Source of the DNA: Minisyncoccota bacterium
GTDB taxonomy: Bacteria; Patescibacteriota; Minisyncoccia; Phycocordibacterales; Phycocordibacteraceae
DNA: 64,000 bases
Direction: 5' to 3'
Assembly (NCBI GenBank): GCA_022842945.1
Contig: JALHOO010000003.1
Location: forward strand, 14,458-78,457
The notes under the pieces were generated by a model, which was not told the DNA's origin, made no database searches, and was given only the letters and a program-made list of their open reading frames with translations. The position numbers and the translations under genes are program-made. Positions 47,688 through 58,428 of the stretch are shown here, in pieces; positions within the stretch are counted from its first letter, which is position 1, and every line of letters begins with the position of its first letter.

Positions 47688-47721
47688 CTGTGCTTTATCT
47701 GAAATCCGTACCATTAGTTTA
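47688..47721 (+). terminator. Perfect 14-bp-stem hairpin (htpX terminator candidate). Its 3' arm contains the first ATG of the homing-endonuclease ORF
   Basis: GAAATCCGTACCAT-TAGTTT-ATGGTACGGATTTC followed by TTCGCTT. Confidence 0.5.
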
Positions 47722-48392
47722 TGGTACGGATTTCTTCGCTTCAGTATCCTAAAAAGAGTCACCGGAAAGTGGTTACACTTCCTGATCCTTCGATTGAGCT
47801 TGCAGAGTTCTTCGGCATCATGATGGGTGACGGGGGAATCAACAATGCGTGGCAGGCGAATATTTGTCTCAACTCAGTTGCAGACAAAGACTTCGTCGTC
47901 TATGTCTGCACAGCTATAAAGAAGCTTTTTGGAATTCAACCATCTGTATTCAAGTGCAAGAACAGCCAAGCTACAAAGATACTCATTTCTAGTGTTGCTC
48001 TTGTCGATTTTTTAGTCGACAAAGGACTTAAAAGAGGAGGCAAGCTCAAAAATGGATTATCTATTCCGGAATGGATACTTGGTAGTACTGAATACAAAAT
48101 AGCCTGTGTGCGGGGACTTATGGATACTGACGGTTGTTTATATATTCACAAGCATACAGTTGCAGGAAAGATCTATAAGAATATTGGTCTTTGCTTTTGC
48201 AGTCACTCACCTGTAGTTATTGCGCAGATATGCGCGGTATTTGAAGAATTCGGCATTATCCCGCATATTAGTAATCAGGGCCGCAGTATCTATCTATATA
48301 AGGAAAGTGCTGTGGCTCGGTATCTTGAGGTGTTTAGTACCTTAAATGAACGTATACGTTCGGTATACAAGAAATTCGGAGGCGTCTCATAG
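47721..48392 (+). CDS. LAGLIDADG-family homing endonuclease (double-motif, free-standing)
   Basis: Two motifs, LAEFFGIMMGDGGI and VRGLMDTDGCLYI. The gene is AT-rich relative to its flanks and its last 15 nt overlap tRNA-Ser. Confidence 0.8.
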   Translation: MVRISSLQYPKKSHRKVVTLPDPSIELAEFFGIMMGDGGINNAWQANICLNSVADKDFVVYVCTAIKKLFGIQPSVFKCKNSQATKILISSVALVDFLVDKGLKRGGKLKNGLSIPEWILGSTEYKIACVRGLMDTDGCLYIHKHTVAGKIYKNIGLCFCSHSPVVIAQICAVFEEFGIIPHISNQGRSIYLYKESAVARYLEVFSTLNERIRSVYKKFGGVS

Positions 48393-48462
48393 CGGTCTAG
48401 TGAGCACGCTTGGAAAGCGTGTGAACCGAAAGGTTCCGAGGGTTCGAATCCCTCCGCCTCCG
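48378..48462 (+). tRNA. tRNA-Ser (anticodon GGA), no encoded CCA
   Basis: Acceptor stem GGAGGCG/CGCCTCC. Three-bp D-stem with GG in the D-loop. Anticodon stem-loop CACGC-TTGGAAA-GCGTG. Long variable arm GAACCGAAAGGTTC. T-arm GAGGG-TTCGAAT-CCCTC. Discriminator G. Confidence 0.85.
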
Positions 48463-48497
48463 CACAGATTAGTGATTAACATTAGTGTCACGCACAT

Positions 48498-52909: not shown

Positions 52910-54592
52910 ATGGTACGAAAGATACTCACGTCGCTTGCAGGGCCTGTACGTGGTCTGCATCAGGCCGCGTACGTGCTTGCAGGGTTAACGCTCGCGTCTC
53001 AGGCTCTTGCGCTCCTGCGTGACCGATTGTTCGCACACAGCTTTGGCGCAGGCGACGTACTCGACTTGTACTACGCTGCTTTCAAGGTGCCGGACTTGGT
53101 CTTCGCACTTGTAGCGTCCTTGGTGTCAGCGTACGTGCTTATACCACGCATTGCCGGAGGATCTCGTGCTCAGTCTCGAGAACTCATATCGCAAACCGCG
53201 TCGTTCCTCTTGATTGGGGGCGGCGCGCTTTGCGCGGTGTTAGCACTCTTTGCGCCCACGCTTCTCTTTGCGCTCTTTCCGAATGCGCAAGATTCGGTGC
53301 ATGCAGAATCGTTTGTGCTCCTTGCCCGCATTCTTCTCATCCAACCCATTCTTCTCGGGCTCTCGGGAATTGTAACGAGCGTGACGCAGGTGCGCAGACG
53401 TTTCTTCTTGTTTGCGCTTTCTCCGGTGCTCTACAACCTCGGCATCATATTCGGCACGCTCGCGCTCTACCCTCTGTATGGTTTGCCGGGCATTGGTATG
53501 GGTGTGCTTATAGGAGCGTTTGCGCATCTCTTGATCCATATACCCGTGCTTGCGGGAGAGAAGCTCTTGCCACGGCTTGTGGTGCCGTCTCCGCGCTTAT
53601 TGTGGGGTGTGATACAGGACTCGGTGCCGAGGTCACTCGCGCTCGCTATGGGCTCTATTACCGCGCTTGCCCTTACTATTCTTGCGGCGAGAACGGGTGA
53701 GGGGAGTATCGCAGTGCTATCACTTGCCATGAACTTGCAGGCAGTACCGCTTTCCCTCATTGCCGCCTCCTATGCAACGGCTGCGTTCCCGGTGCTTGCA
53801 CAGAGTATGGAAGAGAAGAAGTATGATGCGTTCAAGGCGACGCTTTCAGCAGCCGCACGTCACATCGTATTCTGGTCTGCGATTCTGTCGGTGCTCATTC
53901 TTGTTATGCGGGCACACATCGTGCGTATTGTGCTCGGGACCGGTGCGTTTGACTGGGATGCAACCAGACTTACCGCAGCCATTCTCGCCATACTGGTTAT
54001 TGGCCTTATGGCGCAGGGTATCGTATTGCTTGCGTCCCGTGCGTTTTACGCAGCGCAGAGGTCCTGGAACCCGCTCCTTATTCAGGTTGGAGGCCTTATC
54101 GTCTCTATTGGAAGCGCTATCGGTCTTCTTATGCTTGCGCAGGCATTCCCACCAGTTCGCTACTTCGTAGAGGCGCTACTGCGCGTTGAGGATATACCGG
54201 GAACAGACATTCTCCTCATTGCCGTAGGTGCCATGCTCGGCCAGGTCTTCATGGGCTTCCTTGCGCTTGTTACGCTTCGCACAGTTGCGCCTGGGGTGAG
54301 TCGTTCACTCGAGCGTCCGGTGTTCGAGGGGGCTGCAGCGGCCATACTTGGAGGCGCCTCTGCGTATGGGGTCCTTTCGTTCTTTGGAAACCTCGCGCCA
54401 GCCACCACCCTCCTCTATGTCTTCACTGAAGCCGCTCTCGCTGGTATGGTGGGTCTAGTGGTGTCTGGTGCGGTTCTGGCTCTCCTTGCCAACAAGGAGT
54501 TTAAGGACCTCTCAGACTCTCTACGGCGTCTCAAGCCCTCGACCGCCCTTGCGCCTTCCGGGCCGGTCTTATCTGATCGCTCGGATGCGTAG
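52910..54592 (+). CDS. murJ: Lipid II flippase MurJ (MviN)
   Basis: N-terminal AYVLAGLTLASQALALLRDRLFAHSFGAGDVLDLYYAAFKVPDLVF and 14-TM architecture. Confidence 0.85.
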   Translation: MVRKILTSLAGPVRGLHQAAYVLAGLTLASQALALLRDRLFAHSFGAGDVLDLYYAAFKVPDLVFALVASLVSAYVLIPRIAGGSRAQSRELISQTASFLLIGGGALCAVLALFAPTLLFALFPNAQDSVHAESFVLLARILLIQPILLGLSGIVTSVTQVRRRFFLFALSPVLYNLGIIFGTLALYPLYGLPGIGMGVLIGAFAHLLIHIPVLAGEKLLPRLVVPSPRLLWGVIQDSVPRSLALAMGSITALALTILAARTGEGSIAVLSLAMNLQAVPLSLIAASYATAAFPVLAQSMEEKKYDAFKATLSAAARHIVFWSAILSVLILVMRAHIVRIVLGTGAFDWDATRLTAAILAILVIGLMAQGIVLLASRAFYAAQRSWNPLLIQVGGLIVSIGSAIGLLMLAQAFPPVRYFVEALLRVEDIPGTDILLIAVGAMLGQVFMGFLALVTLRTVAPGVSRSLERPVFEGAAAAILGGASAYGVLSFFGNLAPATTLLYVFTEAALAGMVGLVVSGAVLALLANKEFKDLSDSLRRLKPSTALAPSGPVLSDRSDA

Positions 54593-54639
54593 TTTTCAAT
54601 AATCGCGCTACAAGCTCACGGCATGGTAAAATTGCTCGC

Positions 54640-55470
54640 ATGGGAAGAACAAAGATTCTCATACCTGAAGCTGAGTTGCGACATCTCTATGAAGATGAGC
54701 GTTTATCTCCTGCAAAGATAGCCCAGAAATTTAATTGCACGTCCATAACAATCCGGTCTCGTCTCATTGAAGCGGGAATACCTCTTAAAACTAAAAGTGC
54801 CGCACAGACAAAGTACCCGAAGTATGATTTTGATGGCACTGATCTAGAAAAGGCATACATGCTGGGCTTCAGATATGGAGACTTGAATGTATACCAGCCG
54901 GCAGGTGCCTCAGAGACTATTGTGGTACGGTCACACTCGACACACCTAGTTCAGGGTGATCTTTTTAAGAGGCTGTTCGAACGATACGGAACCATAACGG
55001 TCCATGCAAATGAACGGAGCACCCAAATGAACTGCTATTTAAATTCAAGCTTTAGTTTTCTTCTTAATAAATATCCTCGAGAGATGCGCTCATGGCTTTC
55101 TTCCAACGAGGCATTCCTTTGGGCATTCGCAGCAGGATATAGCGATGCCGAGGGAACATTTGGACTTAATCAAGGCAAGGGACGCTACAAGATTGATTCG
55201 TATGATTTTGAAATACTTTCTGATATCCATTCACTACTTGCCAGGAACGATATACGGACCACTTTTCGTGTAATAGCAAAGAAAGGCGAGAACGATTACG
55301 GTTGGATATGGAAGGAGGATTTATGGAGGTTGTCAGTAAATGAAGCAGGTTCTCTTGAAAGATTGATCTCAAACCTTAAACCGTTCTCACTTCACAAAAA
55401 GCGCGTTAAAGATGCAAATATGGTATTACAGAATATAGCGACCAGAAGACACAATGGAACAATCTCGTAA
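54640..55470 (+). CDS. LAGLIDADG-type homing endonuclease-like protein with N-terminal helix-turn-helix
   Basis: Motifs AYMLGFRYGDLNV and FLWAFAAGYSDAEGTF. N-terminal HTH LSPAKIAQKFNCTSITIRSRLIEAG. AT-rich gene. Its last 17 nt overlap the lepA start. Confidence 0.6.
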   Translation: MGRTKILIPEAELRHLYEDERLSPAKIAQKFNCTSITIRSRLIEAGIPLKTKSAAQTKYPKYDFDGTDLEKAYMLGFRYGDLNVYQPAGASETIVVRSHSTHLVQGDLFKRLFERYGTITVHANERSTQMNCYLNSSFSFLLNKYPREMRSWLSSNEAFLWAFAAGYSDAEGTFGLNQGKGRYKIDSYDFEILSDIHSLLARNDIRTTFRVIAKKGENDYGWIWKEDLWRLSVNEAGSLERLISNLKPFSLHKKRVKDANMVLQNIATRRHNGTIS

Positions 55471-57253
55471 TATACGTAACTTCAGTATCATAGCTCACGT
55501 GGACCATGGAAAGTCCACGCTTGCTGATCGTATGCTCGAGCGAACTGGGACTATTGAGACCCGCAATATGCGGGACCAGGTGCTCGACAAGATGGACCTG
55601 GAGAGAGAGCGTGGCATAACCATCAAGATGCAGCCGGCACGTATGAAGTACGTGGGTGCTGACGGCACACCGTACACGCTCAATCTTATTGATACACCAG
55701 GACACATCGACTTTTCGTACGAAGTATCCCGCGCCCTCTCCGCGGTTGAGGGCGTTATTCTCCTTGTTGATTCAACACAGGGTATTCAGGCGCAGACCCT
55801 CACAACGCTCCAAATGGCGAAGGACGCGGGATGTGTGATTATTCCCGTACTCTCAAAGATTGATTCAATTGCCGCACGTGTCGACGACGTGTCTTTGGAA
55901 CTTGCGGAGTTGCTTTCTATTGATCCTGATACGGTGCTTACGGTTTCCGGAAAGACCGGCGAAGGTGTTACGGAGCTTCTCGAGGCGGTTGTTGCTAGAG
56001 TGCCCGCACCCCGTCCAAGTGCAGGAGGGCCCCGTGCACTTATCTTCGACTTCTCCTATTCCACTCATCGCGGCATAACGGTGTTCATGCGCGTCTTTGA
56101 CGGGGAGTTTAAGAAAGGGGACGTGCTGCGCTTTGCGGCCGCTGGAGAGCGTTTTACGGCCCTTGAGACGGGCATATTCATGCCCGACGAATTGATTACG
56201 GAGTCTCTAACGGCAGGCGAGATTGGGTACCTGGTTACGGGTGTGAAGCAGGCGGGTGTGGTTAACGTGGGAGATACGGTTATTGCGAACGCTGGATCAA
56301 CTGCAGGTCTTGAAGGGTTCGACCGCCCGCGTCCGGTTGTGTGGGCATCGGTATACCCAGAGAGCCAGGACGATCTTACAGAACTCCGCCAGTCTCTTGA
56401 GCGTCTGCGTCTCTCAGACTCCTCGCTTGCCTTTGAGGAAGAATCCTCCGGTATGCTCGGGCGCGGGTTCCGTTGCGGATTCCTCGGCATGCTTCACCTT
56501 GAGATTATTGTGGAGCGTTTGAAGCGCGAGTTCAATCTTGAACTTATCGTTACCATTCCCACCATCGCGTACCTTGTTACGGACAAACGCGGCAAGCGCG
56601 AGACCGTGTACACCCCGTCCAAGTTCCCAGCGTTCGGCGAGACTGAGGCTATCGAGGAGCCATGGGTGAAGGTTACGCTCATAACCCCGAACGAGTCGCT
56701 CTCAAACATGATCCAGCTCTTCCACGACCATGAGGGCAATGTGCTTGAGACGGAGACGCATCTTGATGGACGTATTGAACTGCGTGTGGAGATGCCGCTT
56801 CGCGAGCTTATGCGCGGGTTCTTCGACAAGGTGAAGAATGCGTCGTCTGGCTACGCATCCCTTTCCTACGAGTTTATGGATGAGCGTCCTGCTGACGTCG
56901 TAAAGCTTGAGATATACGTGGCAGAAGAACCTGTGCCAGCGTTCGCACGTGTGGTGTCCCGTAGACGCGTGGTTGAGGAAGGAGAGCGCATGGTTGAGAA
57001 GCTCCATGAGATTCTCCCGCGCCAGATGTTTGTGCTTAAAATCCAGGCACATGCCTTGGGACGCATCGTTGCGTCGCGCTCTATCTCAGCGCTTCGCAAG
57101 GACGTAACGGGGTATCTGTACGGAGGCGACATAACCCGCAAGATGAAACTTCTTGAGAAGCAGAAGAAAGGAAAGAAGCGCCGCGGGGCACACGCAAAGA
57201 TGGATATCCCCCAGGATGTGTTCATGAAGATGGTGCAGGACTCGGAGCGTTAG
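55454..57253 (+). CDS. lepA: Elongation factor 4 (LepA)
   Basis: IRNFSIIAHVDHGKSTLADRMLERTG and full-length collinearity with LepA, including the C-terminal domain. Confidence 0.95.
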   Translation: MEQSRNIRNFSIIAHVDHGKSTLADRMLERTGTIETRNMRDQVLDKMDLERERGITIKMQPARMKYVGADGTPYTLNLIDTPGHIDFSYEVSRALSAVEGVILLVDSTQGIQAQTLTTLQMAKDAGCVIIPVLSKIDSIAARVDDVSLELAELLSIDPDTVLTVSGKTGEGVTELLEAVVARVPAPRPSAGGPRALIFDFSYSTHRGITVFMRVFDGEFKKGDVLRFAAAGERFTALETGIFMPDELITESLTAGEIGYLVTGVKQAGVVNVGDTVIANAGSTAGLEGFDRPRPVVWASVYPESQDDLTELRQSLERLRLSDSSLAFEEESSGMLGRGFRCGFLGMLHLEIIVERLKREFNLELIVTIPTIAYLVTDKRGKRETVYTPSKFPAFGETEAIEEPWVKVTLITPNESLSNMIQLFHDHEGNVLETETHLDGRIELRVEMPLRELMRGFFDKVKNASSGYASLSYEFMDERPADVVKLEIYVAEEPVPAFARVVSRRRVVEEGERMVEKLHEILPRQMFVLKIQAHALGRIVASRSISALRKDVTGYLYGGDITRKMKLLEKQKKGKKRRGAHAKMDIPQDVFMKMVQDSER

Positions 57254-57714: not shown

Positions 57715-58428
57715 TTGGGTCTTCATGTTCCACTTCAACAGGAGAAGACTGTGCACAAAGCTTCCTATCTGGCAGCGGCTGCCGCCGCTCTGTTCATCAG
57801 CCTCGGCGCCTCGCCCGTTCTGGCCCAGTCCCACGACTGGACCGGCTGGCAGGCCACCCTCGGCGCGTCGTCGGTCGAATCCAACCTGGAAGGCGAAGGG
57901 TTCTACAATCCCTATGATCTGGCGCCCTCGGGCACCGTGGTCAGTGTCGGCCTGAACCATCGCTGGAACGCCGGCCACATCGCGCTTGGCGTCTACACGA
58001 ACGCCCAGTTCGGGTCCGTCGAGGCATCCGGTTCGGGCATTTCGTGCGAGATCAGCGACTGCGGCTTCGAAGAGATCGAGTATCGGACCGAGCGCACCAA
58101 CTATACCGTGAACGCCGGCCTGTCCGCCGGCCACGAGATCGGCCCTGTGCTGGTCTCTGTGCTCGGCGGCGTGACGGTGGGCGACTACATGCGCTCCGTC
58201 CGCTACGATGTGAACGGCACCGTCGACTACTGGTACGAAGGCAAGGGGTTTCGTGCGGGCTACCACTACGGCATCGCCGTCGAGTACGCCTTCACCGACC
58301 GCTGGTCGGCCCGCCTCGAACTCCGCCAGACGGAGCTGATCGAGGACGTGTCCGAAAGTCCCTTCTACACCGACGAGTCGGGATTCAGTCAGACGAGCGC
58401 CACGCTCGAAGCCGGCTGGAAGTTCTGA
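57715..58428 (+). CDS. Outer-membrane beta-barrel protein (Omp25/OmpA-like porin family) encoded in a GC-rich (~65%) island
   Basis: Signal peptide ending SPVLAQS. Alternating amphipathic beta strands. C-terminal ...LEAGWKF with a terminal aromatic residue. The true start may be the GTG at 57751. Confidence 0.6.
   Translation: MGLHVPLQQEKTVHKASYLAAAAAALFISLGASPVLAQSHDWTGWQATLGASSVESNLEGEGFYNPYDLAPSGTVVSVGLNHRWNAGHIALGVYTNAQFGSVEASGSGISCEISDCGFEEIEYRTERTNYTVNAGLSAGHEIGPVLVSVLGGVTVGDYMRSVRYDVNGTVDYWYEGKGFRAGYHYGIAVEYAFTDRWSARLELRQTELIEDVSESPFYTDESGFSQTSATLEAGWKF

What the first reader, a model, noticed from the sequence alone, without database searches (positions are those of the whole stretch)
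54640..55470. Second LAGLIDADG-like endonuclease gene, HTH-fused, overlapping the start of lepA
The 276-aa AT-rich ORF has an N-terminal helix-turn-helix followed by two LAGLIDADG-like motifs (LGFRYGDLNV and FAAGYSDAEGTF). It is inserted between murJ and lepA, and its last 17 nt overlap the lepA start codon region. Two unrelated free-standing LAGLIDADG genes each overlap the 5' end of a highly conserved gene (tRNA-Ser and lepA) within 8 kb of each other. This suggests active homing-endonuclease traffic in this lineage, or selfish elements that ensure retention by overlapping essential genes.
Basis: partly seen in the sequence, partly recalled or inferred. Interest (0 to 1): 0.55.

Follow-up and report, generated by a model that had tools for sequence, protein, structure and literature searches.

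The report
Homing endonuclease gene inserted into lepA
This is a selfish, probably mobile LAGLIDADG endonuclease gene of ultrasmall (Patescibacteria) bacteria that sits inside the start of the conserved lepA gene and repairs the damage by carrying its own replacement lepA start, a design previously described in fungal mitochondria.

Summary
The 276-aa ORF (54640-55470) is real. It is a two-motif LAGLIDADG endonuclease with an N-terminal helix-turn-helix: Pfam above cut-off, AlphaFold2 pLDDT 92, and only LAGLIDADG homing enzymes among the listed Foldseek matches. Both catalytic acids (D81, E171) are invariant and dN/dS is 0.06-0.12.

It is not simply between murJ and lepA. In 62 of 71 species genomes that carry a relative, lepA follows immediately. 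In 48 of 62 loci a leftover copy of lepA codons IRNFxIIAH lies just upstream. So the cassette is inserted in the lepA P-loop region (AH|[I/V]DHGKST) and supplies a new lepA start codon inside its own last codons. A -10 promoter box sits 5-9 nt before the endonuclease start in 54 of 60 loci.

None of 38 close relatives carries it (LepA up to 94% identical). Occupied and empty alleles are interleaved in the LepA tree. GC3 is 0.40 against 0.6 for the neighbours. Paralogs sit at the groEL 3' end and upstream of a metG-like gene.

Verdict: a site-specific homing endonuclease cassette that replaces a gene end. It is a new bacterial variant of fungal mitochondrial "mORFs". Cleavage and transfer are inferred, not shown.

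The parts
52910..54592 (+). murJ (lipid II flippase), the upstream neighbour. It abuts lepA directly in relatives that lack the cassette.
   Evidence: Pfam MurJ E = 5e-48. Empty sites show murJ stop, 10-45 nt, then lepA ATG.
54593..54610 (+). Decayed remnant of the original lepA 5' end (TTTTCAATAATCGCGCTA = F-S-I-I-A-[H>L]). Its start codon and first four codons are deleted.
   Evidence: Compare the empty allele in L120, AATTTCTCGATAATCGCCCAT. The same remnant is in L124 and L001. The family-wide PWM test finds the remnant in 48 of 62 loci. The window copy alone scores weakly (p = 0.13).
54611..54639 (+). Left end of the cassette: a 29-nt spacer with an extended -10 box (TG at 54624-54625, TAAAAT at 54627-54632) 7 nt before the endonuclease ATG. 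This predicts a leaderless or very short-leader mRNA.
   Evidence: A -10-like hexamer ends 5-9 nt before the start in 54 of 60 distinct loci (shuffled mean 17, max 29), with TG in 35. The generic promoter scanner finds no full -35/-10 site in the window.
54640..55470 (+). HTH-LAGLIDADG endonuclease ORF, 276 aa. HTH is aa 10-44 (54667-54771). LAGLIDADG helix 1 is aa 68-81 with catalytic D81 (54880-54882). Helix 2 is aa 157-171 with catalytic E171 (55150-55152).
   Evidence: D81 and E171 are 100% conserved in 50 homologs. dN/dS is 0.06-0.12.
55454..55498 (+). Cassette-borne replacement lepA 5' end (ATG...Ala-His). The ATG lies inside the endonuclease codons Asn-Gly (AAT GGA). The overlap with the endonuclease ORF is 55454-55470.
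   Evidence: The endonuclease stop overlaps the lepA start in 61 of 62 loci. Occupied LepA N-termini are 3-8 residues longer than empty ones.
55499..55501 (+). GTG (Val) codon of AH-V-DHGKST, immediately right of the inferred junction. It is a candidate target-site immunity change or a change that travels with the cassette.
   Evidence: In the close clade, 11 of 11 occupied alleles have Val against 3 of 38 empty alleles (Fisher p = 1.2e-8). Family-wide the figures are 30 of 62 against 2 of 35.
55454..57253 (+). lepA (elongation factor 4), reconstituted and intact.
   Evidence: Pfam GTP_EFTU, EFG_III, EFG_C and LepA_C. It is 94% identical to LepA of relatives without the cassette.

Best explanation
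The ORF encodes a monomeric, two-motif LAGLIDADG homing endonuclease with an extra N-terminal helix-turn-helix DNA-binding module. It is carried on a cassette of about 0.9 kb (about 54611-55498) that occupies one specific site: the codons for the GTPase P-loop of lepA (Ala-His | Ile/Val-Asp-His-Gly-Lys-Ser-Thr).

Inferred life cycle:
1. The enzyme cuts lepA alleles that lack the cassette, at or near this site.
2. The break is repaired from an occupied allele, which copies the cassette in.
3. An insertion about 40 nt into an open reading frame would destroy lepA. The cassette avoids this by carrying a replacement lepA 5' end at its own 3' end. The new start codon is embedded in the endonuclease's conserved C-terminal Asn/His-Gly codons.
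4. The displaced native 5' end stays upstream as a non-functional remnant. In many lineages its GCA-CA codons serve as the -35 box of a hybrid promoter, while the cassette supplies the -10 box 5-9 nt before the endonuclease start.
5. The regenerated site in occupied alleles differs from empty sites (Ile to Val, ATH to GTG, in the window's clade), which would protect it from re-cutting.

Shown here: the architecture, the fold, conservation of the catalytic residues, purifying selection, site-specificity across classes of Patescibacteria, and presence/absence among close relatives.
Inferred: cleavage activity, the exact cut site, immunity, and cell-to-cell DNA transfer (presumably by natural transformation).
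For: Fold and family: Pfam LAGLIDADG_3 is above its cut-off. The AF2 model has pLDDT 92.2 and pTM 0.80. The top Foldseek PDB hits are PI-PfuI, I-AniI, E-DreI and I-DmoI, all at probability 1.0.

Active-site conservation: D81 and E171, plus R182, K184 and D186, are 100% conserved in 50 homologs down to about 40% identity. dN/dS is 0.06-0.12 in all unsaturated pairs.

Site-specificity: in 62 of 71 species loci lepA starts -38 to +10 nt from the endonuclease stop, while the upstream genes vary.

Duplicated lepA 5' end: a PWM of genuine lepA codons IRNFxIIAH matches upstream of the endonuclease gene in 48 of 62 loci (33 at the minimum empirical p). The match lies at fixed distances of 27 nt or 17-19 nt. 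It is absent from paralogs that are not next to lepA. Several remnants still translate perfectly.

Patchy distribution: 0 of 38 murJ-anchored relatives carry the gene, including L120 (MurJ 86%, LepA 94% identical). Occupied and empty alleles are interleaved in the LepA tree in at least six places.

Composition: GC is lower than lepA in 66 of 67 records, by 12 points on average. GC3 is 0.40 against 0.59-0.62.

Decoupled histories: the ratio of endonuclease distance to LepA distance ranges from about 0.55 (L029/L035: 0.20 against 0.37) to 4 (window/L001: 0.28 against 0.07).

Promoter.

Paralogs at other conserved gene ends (groEL 3' end, upstream of a metG-like gene) show that the family diversifies by target.

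Precedent for the design: fungal mitochondrial mORFs (PMC3630166).
Against: No biochemical evidence of cleavage exists, and the target site is inferred only from the position of the junction.

Endonuclease and LepA distances are positively correlated (r = 0.71). Endonuclease GC tracks host GC (r = 0.79). Much of the transmission is therefore vertical or within clades, and long residence is possible.

No clearly degenerate copies were seen among the loci, although the motif-based search is biased towards intact genes. The classic gain-decay-loss cycle predicts such copies.

No co-conversion tract could be resolved (synonymous sites saturated).

The Val 'immunity' change is absent from about half of occupied alleles family-wide.

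The window's own remnant is short and individually non-significant (p = 0.13).

The exact left junction is uncertain by about 12 nt in the window's clade, where a GAYCAYGG-like motif occurs in the spacer.
Confidence: 0.75

Rival explanations
1. Trapped former homing element. The cassette invaded lepA long ago, is now inherited only vertically, and persists because lepA depends on it for its promoter, ribosome entry and start codon. Absence in relatives would reflect repeated replacement by empty alleles or loss, not ongoing homing.
For: Endonuclease and LepA distances correlate (r = 0.71). Endonuclease GC tracks host GC (r = 0.79). The window, L124 and L001 share the same 22-nt deletion in the remnant, which indicates one ancestral insertion for that sub-clade. 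The lepA ATG lies inside the endonuclease ORF.
Against: Dependence of lepA constrains only the last ~20 nt and the promoter. It does not explain dN/dS of 0.06-0.12 over the whole ORF or 100% conservation of the catalytic D and E. Near-intact remnants in many lineages are hard to reconcile with very old insertions. Some pairs have endonucleases much more similar than their LepA proteins. GC3 remains 20 points below the host.
Confidence: 0.13
2. Domesticated LAGLIDADG-HTH protein (WhiA-like). It would be a host DNA-binding regulator co-transcribed with lepA and no longer a nuclease or mobile.
For: The protein combines an HTH with a LAGLIDADG scaffold, as WhiA does (my knowledge). It is under strong purifying selection, all ORFs are intact, and it is tightly operon-like with lepA.
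Against: Both catalytic acidic residues are invariant, whereas WhiA has lost them (my knowledge). The gene is missing from 38 of 38 close relatives, which does not fit a useful host regulator. It is flanked by a target-gene duplication. Paralogs sit at the ends of other housekeeping genes. Its codon composition is foreign.
Confidence: 0.08
3. Remnant of an intein or a group I/II intron that once interrupted the lepA P-loop, with the endonuclease ORF left behind.
For: P-loop motifs are classic intein insertion sites and inteins carry LAGLIDADG domains (my knowledge). The top Foldseek hit is the intein endonuclease PI-PfuI.
Against: Pfam reports no Hint or intein splicing domain. The ORF starts with an HTH and is separated from the lepA remnant by stop codons in most loci. 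Rfam finds no intron in 54300-55800. lepA is restored by duplication, not by splicing.
Confidence: 0.02

Closest known systems
Fungal mitochondrial mobile endonuclease ORFs ('mORFs'): Allomyces macrogynus atp6, and Glomus atp6/atp9/cox2/nad3 (PMC3630166)
   Same: A free-standing LAGLIDADG (or GIY-YIG) ORF inserted into a conserved protein-coding gene. It carries a replacement copy of the gene's terminus, so the gene stays whole. The displaced native terminus remains beside it as a diverging remnant. Presence varies between close relatives.
   Different: This element is in bacterial chromosomes, not mitochondria. It replaces the 5' end (start codon included) rather than the 3' end. The endonuclease is not fused in frame to the host gene. 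It brings a -10 promoter box and has an N-terminal HTH. Its target is the GTPase P-loop of lepA.
Free-standing homing endonucleases of T-even phages (Seg and Mob proteins; 'intronless homing'). From my knowledge; a phage survey is listed as PMC10448857.
   Same: Endonuclease genes without an intron or intein, lodged beside or inside conserved genes. They spread by double-strand-break repair and vary in presence between related genomes.
   Different: Those enzymes are GIY-YIG or HNH, phage-borne, usually intergenic, and do not rebuild the target gene's end. No phage relative of this protein was found.
LAGLIDADG endonucleases in rRNA insertion sequences of CPR/Patescibacteria (PMC11270868)
   Same: Same phylum, same enzyme superfamily, and homing to highly conserved sites.
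   Different: Those lie in intervening sequences that are removed from rRNA transcripts. This one is in a protein-coding gene, has no splicing element, and compensates by duplicating the gene's 5' end.
I-DmoI, I-AniI and PI-PfuI (solved LAGLIDADG enzymes)
   Same: A two-domain LAGLIDADG core with one catalytic acid at the end of each LAGLIDADG helix (Foldseek probability 1.0, TM to target up to 0.70).
   Different: Sequence identity is only 13-17%. Those enzymes are encoded in introns or inteins and have no N-terminal HTH module.
WhiA/DUF199 (domesticated LAGLIDADG plus HTH; from my knowledge)
   Same: A LAGLIDADG scaffold fused to a helix-turn-helix.
   Different: In WhiA the HTH is C-terminal, the catalytic residues are lost, and the gene is conserved across its lineage. 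Here the HTH is N-terminal, the catalytic residues are invariant, and the distribution is patchy.

Membership tests
LAGLIDADG endonuclease superfamily | Profile match to a curated LAGLIDADG model above its threshold | tested here: met
   PF14528 scores 29.2 bits against a cut-off of 22.5, aa 162-244. Only the second domain is detected by sequence.
LAGLIDADG endonuclease superfamily | Two alpha-beta-beta-alpha-beta-beta-alpha domains packed through the two LAGLIDADG helices | tested here: met
   AF2 secondary-structure order. Foldseek hits to I-DmoI, I-AniI and PI-PfuI at probability 1.0.
LAGLIDADG endonuclease superfamily | A conserved acidic residue at the C-terminal end of each LAGLIDADG helix (metal-binding active site) | tested here: met
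   D81 (GDLN) and E171 (DAEG) are invariant in 25 and in 50 homologs.
LAGLIDADG endonuclease superfamily | Site-specific DNA cleavage with 4-nt 3' overhangs | not testable with these tools
   Needs a biochemical assay.
Homing endonuclease gene (mobile, site-specific) | The same insertion site in a conserved target across hosts | tested here: met
   62 of 71 loci are at the lepA 5' end. The remnant ends at the His codon in 48 of 62.
Homing endonuclease gene (mobile, site-specific) | Presence/absence polymorphism among close relatives | tested here: met
   0 of 38 murJ-anchored relatives carry it. Alleles are interleaved in the LepA tree.
Homing endonuclease gene (mobile, site-specific) | Horizontal transfer (element tree conflicts with host tree) | tested here: inconclusive
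   Overall r = 0.71, with outlier pairs in both directions. No bootstrapped reconciliation was done.
Homing endonuclease gene (mobile, site-specific) | Co-conversion of flanking target sequence | tested here: inconclusive
   Sister pairs differ by about 22% at nucleotide level, so no tract is resolvable. Enrichment of Val next to the junction is suggestive.
mORF-type cassette (endonuclease plus replacement gene terminus) | Duplication of the target gene's terminus on both sides of the endonuclease ORF, with one copy functional and one displaced | tested here: met
   PWM test, junction comparison and intact downstream lepA.
mORF-type cassette (endonuclease plus replacement gene terminus) | The native remnant is closer to relatives' genes than the inserted copy is | not tested
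   The repeats are only about 30-40 nt, and no empty-site relatives were available for the lineages with intact remnants.
Intein | Hint splicing domain in frame with the host protein | tested here: not met
   No Hint domain. Not in frame, with stop codons between remnant and ORF.
Group I/II intron-encoded endonuclease | A surrounding ribozyme | tested here: not met
   Rfam E-value scan of 54300-55800 found no intron family.
WhiA-like domesticated LAGLIDADG | Loss of catalytic acids, and conservation across the lineage | tested here: not met
   The acids are invariant. The gene is absent from close relatives.

The most novel reading that the evidence does not exclude
These genes represent an unrecognised class of bacterial chromosomal 'gene-end-replacing' homing cassettes, the bacterial counterparts of mitochondrial mORFs. 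They would act as natural gene drives among Patescibacteria, probably through natural transformation. They would retarget by changing or multiplying N-terminal HTH modules (1 to 5 per protein), and different branches hit the ends of different housekeeping genes (lepA P-loop, groEL 3' end, a metG-like gene). The hybrid promoter built from the target's own codons and the start codon written inside the endonuclease tail would be adaptations that make insertion into a coding sequence harmless.
Probability: 0.45. Interest if true: 0.72.

Novelty: new variant of a known kind. Interest (0 to 1): 0.62.

Why it matters
Homing endonucleases normally need an intron or intein to make insertion into a gene harmless. 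This family shows a third solution working in bacterial chromosomes: carry a spare copy of the gene's start.

It gives direct genomic evidence for DNA exchange and gene-drive-like spread among Patescibacteria, which are uncultured, ultrasmall and poorly understood genetically.

It offers a set of natural meganucleases with long, conserved targets (the GTPase P-loop of lepA, the groEL 3' end), each with an accessory HTH module. That is of interest for enzyme engineering.

It also explains annotation oddities: extended LepA N-termini, overlapping genes, and small pseudo-ORFs upstream.

Public records currently label these proteins only as 'hypothetical' or 'LAGLIDADG family homing endonuclease'. 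I found no paper describing the lepA association or the duplicated-end architecture.

Tried and rejected
1. Co-conversion tract. I compared sliding-window nucleotide identity of occupied and empty sister loci on both sides of the junction. Divergence is about 20-25% everywhere, so the test is uninformative.

2. Direct self-alignment of the 110 nt upstream against the downstream lepA 5' end. Only 5 of 62 loci reach z > 4, because short AT-rich sequence gives low power. I replaced it with a PWM test.

3. The idea that the remnant continues through the whole 27-nt spacer up to the endonuclease ATG (lepA +30..+57). Rejected: identity is 6.6 of 27 against 6.9 for shuffled sequence, p = 0.73. A GAYCAYGG-like motif in the spacer of the window's clade remains unexplained.

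4. The generic sigma-70 scanner finds no promoter in the window. The window has only an extended -10 box, and the full -35/-10 arrangement appears in 19 of 60 loci.

5. A Shine-Dalgarno sequence for lepA encoded by the endonuclease tail. Support is weak: a strict core occurs in 17 of 55 loci, so I do not claim it.

6. Intein or intron origin and a WhiA-like domesticated protein: rejected.

7. A remnant-plus-replacement design at the paralogs. Only L072 shows a plausible groEL tail remnant, and there is none at the metG-like gene. No tRNA-Ser duplication was found for the window's other LAGLIDADG gene.

8. Phage relatives: none.

9. Empty alleles L089, L090 and L109 carry Val. I considered them footprints of cassette loss, but the upstream sequence there is simply the murJ 3' end.

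Full report
An ATG-initiated ORF of 276 aa runs from 54640 to 55470 on the + strand, and its last 17 nt overlap the ATG of the next gene at 55454. The neighbours are murJ (52910-54592; Pfam MurJ E = 5e-48) and lepA (GTP_EFTU, EFG_III, EFG_C, LepA_C). GC drops to 0.41-0.45 over the ORF from 0.55-0.59 on either side. The drop is at synonymous sites too: GC3 is 0.40, against 0.62 for lepA and 0.59 for murJ.

**2. The protein is a genuine LAGLIDADG enzyme.**
- Pfam LAGLIDADG_3 matches aa 162-244 above its gathering score (29.2 against 22.5 bits). The N-terminal HTH models give only weak hits.
- An AlphaFold2 model built on 25 homologs is confident (pLDDT 92.2, pTM 0.80). It shows a three-helix bundle (aa 10-44) followed by two alpha-beta-beta-alpha-beta-beta-alpha halves, whose leading helices end at D81 and E171.
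- All 50 listed Foldseek matches in the PDB are LAGLIDADG proteins: homing endonucleases, engineered meganucleases, one maturase (bI3) and intein-associated endonucleases. Examples are PI-PfuI, I-AniI, E-DreI, I-DmoI and I-OnuI variants. The listed matches run from E = 2.6e-8 to 3.8e-6, and 114 matches in all reach E <= 0.001.

**3. The family is large and uniform, and the active site is conserved.** A protein search returned 132 relatives. Nearly all are 270-280 aa, share 42-100% identity and come from Patescibacteria. They are named at best 'LAGLIDADG family homing endonuclease'. D81 and E171 are invariant in 25 and then in 50 homologs, together with R182, K184 and D186. dN/dS is 0.06-0.12 in every pair where synonymous sites are not saturated. 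An exhaustive profile search of 1.84 billion cluster representatives found 370 clusters at E <= 1e-30 and 1829 at E <= 1e-10. Many are 320-556 aa with two to five matched stretches, which I read as tandem N-terminal HTH modules, although I confirmed the duplication by eye only in P0067.

**4. The gene is tied to lepA across the phylum.** A scan of one genome per species returned 71 loci. In 62 of them, which include every hit with at least 37% identity whose contig continues past the endonuclease gene, lepA starts between -38 and +10 nt of the endonuclease stop, most often at -17, -14, -23 or -4. The upstream gene varies (murJ in many, unrelated genes in others). The hosts carry names such as Kaiser-, Wolfe-, Taylor-, Staskawicz-, Nomura-, Falkow-, Moran-, Berkel- and Kerfeldbacteria.

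**5. Close relatives lack it.** I anchored a metagenome scan on MurJ, which is neutral with respect to the endonuclease. It gave 47 loci from close relatives (MurJ 33-86% and LepA 54-94% identical to the window over full-length matches). lepA is in view in 38 of them, and none has the endonuclease. In 37 of these murJ is followed directly by lepA. In a LepA tree that excludes the N-terminal region, occupied and empty alleles are interleaved: window with L077, L001 with L120, L007 with L087, L008 with L106, L009 with L101, and L011 with L117. The shallowest four taxa are nearly equidistant, so that part of the topology is unreliable. The deeper pairs are not affected.

**6. The gene is inside lepA, not beside it.**
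- Empty sites read: murJ stop, 10-45 nt, then ATG AAC ATA CGT AAT TTC … GCC CAT ATT GAC CAT GG (M-N-I-R-N-F…A-H-I-D-H-G).
- In the window the murJ stop is followed at once by TTTTCAATAATCGCGCTA. This is a decayed copy of lepA codons F-S-I-I-A-H whose start codon has been deleted. Next come 29 nt, then the endonuclease ORF. A complete lepA then begins at an ATG inside the endonuclease's Asn-Gly codons (AAT GGA) and adds MEQSR before N-I-R-N-F.
- In other lineages the upstream copy is far better preserved, for example ATAAGAAATTTTTGTATTATTGCACAT = IRNFCIIAH in L043.
- A position weight matrix (PWM) built from genuine lepA 5' ends matches the 120 nt upstream of the endonuclease gene at p <= 0.05 in 48 of 62 loci, and at the minimum attainable p in 33. 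The match ends at fixed distances from the ATG: 27 nt in 18 loci and 17-19 nt in 13. The eight paralogs that are not next to lepA show no such match.
- The 27-nt spacer itself is not lepA-like. The left junction therefore lies at or just after the His codon of AH|[I/V]DHGKST, the GTPase P-loop.
- In the window's clade a GAYCAYGG-like motif in the spacer leaves about 12 nt of uncertainty.

**7. Expression signals.** A -10-like hexamer ends 5-9 nt before the endonuclease start in 54 of 60 distinct loci (shuffled mean 17, maximum 29), and 35 of these have the TG of an extended -10 box. In 19 loci there is a full -35/16-18 nt/-10 arrangement (shuffled mean 2.8). The -35 is TGCACA in 16 of them, which comes from the remnant's Ala-His codons. 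The window has TGgTAAAAT 7 nt before the ATG and no -35. I infer a leaderless or near-leaderless transcript. This is a prediction only.

**8. Candidate immunity change.** In the window's clade, all 11 distinct occupied alleles encode AHVDHGKST (CAY GTR GAY), while 35 of 38 empty alleles encode AHIDHGKST (Fisher p = 1.2e-8, not corrected for phylogeny). Family-wide, Val occurs in 30 of 62 occupied alleles against 2 of 35 empty ones. The change sits next to the inferred junction, where LAGLIDADG enzymes are most sensitive to substitutions (my knowledge). It is not universal, so it may be specific to certain lineages or may simply travel with the cassette.

**9. Vertical or horizontal transmission?** Endonuclease and LepA distances correlate (r = 0.71), and the endonuclease usually diverges faster (window/L001: 0.28 against 0.07). 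Some pairs show the reverse (L029/L035: 0.20 against 0.37; L060 with L043 and L063: 0.30 against 0.47). Endonuclease GC is lower than lepA GC in 66 of 67 records, by 12 points on average, yet it tracks the host (r = 0.79). The window, L124 and L001 share the same deletion in the remnant, so they descend from one insertion event. My reading is mostly vertical or within-clade transmission, with repeated gain or loss. A purely vertical 'trapped' element is the main rival. It does not explain whole-ORF purifying selection or the invariant catalytic residues.

**10. Paralogs.**
- Relatives with 30-34% identity lie convergent with groEL. In L068, L071, L072 and L075 the two stop codons overlap. In L073 and L074 the genes are 44-52 nt apart.
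- Two others (33-37% identity) lie about 70 nt upstream of a gene whose N-terminus (…SALPYANGSLH[L/C]GHM…) looks like methionyl-tRNA synthetase. I identified it by eye and did not scan it against a family library.
- Only L072 shows a possible displaced GroEL tail (GMPGMGGGMDY).
- The family therefore diversifies by target, always at the end of a highly conserved gene.

**11. Exclusions.** There is no Hint or intein domain, no intron in Rfam and no phage relative. The WhiA-type domestication model fails on catalytic residues and on distribution.

**12. Comparison with known systems.** The architecture matches the 'mORFs' of fungal mitochondria. Those are endonuclease ORFs inserted in atp6, atp9, cox2 or nad3 that carry a replacement C-terminus and leave the native one as a remnant, first reported for Allomyces atp6 (PMC3630166). 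The differences here are a bacterial chromosome, the 5' end rather than the 3' end, a start codon written into the endonuclease tail, a hybrid promoter, and an HTH module. LAGLIDADG genes in CPR bacteria have been described in rRNA insertion sequences (PMC11270868). I found no paper on protein-gene targets or on lepA.

**13. Verdict.** This is a real, well-supported free-standing LAGLIDADG homing endonuclease cassette that occupies the lepA P-loop site and replaces the gene's 5' end. It is a new bacterial variant of a known kind. Activity, cut site, immunity and transfer route remain to be shown.

Noticed in passing
window 47721-48392 (+) and tRNA-Ser(GGA) 48378-48463; L103 3-413 and 412-497: The window's other LAGLIDADG-like ORF (223 aa; Pfam LAGLIDADG_3 20 bits, just below the cut-off; GC3 0.40) overlaps the 5' end of tRNA-Ser(GGA) by 15 nt. 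A 63%-identical homolog in relative L103 ends exactly at the same tRNA, so it also looks site-specific. It is unrelated in sequence to the lepA-linked gene (E = 1.3). I found no duplicated tRNA 5' end.
   Followed up: partly
L068, L071, L072, L073, L074, L075: Paralogs of 340-396 aa with an extra N-terminal HTH lie convergent with groEL. Their stop codons overlap the groEL stop by 4 nt in L068, L071, L072 and L075, and the genes are 44-52 nt apart in L073 and L074. L072 has a possible displaced GroEL C-terminal tail (GMPGMGGGMDY) on the far side of the paralog.
   Followed up: partly
L065 4689-5771 and L067 3338-4420: Two 360-aa paralogs sit about 70 nt upstream of a gene whose N-terminus looks like methionyl-tRNA synthetase (HIGH-type motif near the start). 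I identified it by eye only. The contigs are labelled 'Methanosarcinales archaeon', so either the family reaches archaea or these contigs are mis-binned.
   Followed up: no
L004 6818-9187 (Wolfebacteria lepA): This LepA is 789 aa instead of about 600. It has an in-frame insertion of about 130 aa in the GTPase domain that resembles a GxxExxY/PD-(D/E)XK-like protein, plus other insertions. The gene caller recorded only a 150-aa C-terminal product here. L129 LepA is also long (649 aa).
   Followed up: no
window 57715-58428 (+), GC 0.64-0.66: A 237-aa ORF in a sharply GC-rich patch (background about 0.53). Its counterpart in L001 carries Pfam OMP_b-brl (outer-membrane beta-barrel). That is unexpected in Patescibacteria, which are generally thought to lack an outer membrane, and it may be a horizontal acquisition.
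   Followed up: no
L089, L090, L109 (empty lepA alleles): These three relatives lack the cassette but encode AHVDHGKST (and ADRMLE), as occupied alleles do. They may be naturally resistant target alleles.
   Followed up: partly
P0067 and many proteins: Family members of 320-556 aa match the profile in 2-5 stretches. In P0067 this is a tandem duplication of the N-terminal HTH module. This hints at modular extension of DNA recognition.
   Followed up: no
window 54611-54623; L001, L009, L125, L129 spacers: In the window's clade the spacer after the lepA remnant carries a conserved G[A/C]YCAYG motif that resembles lepA GAY-CAY-GG (Asp-His-Gly). It is either a further piece of remnant or a partial second duplication.
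   Followed up: partly
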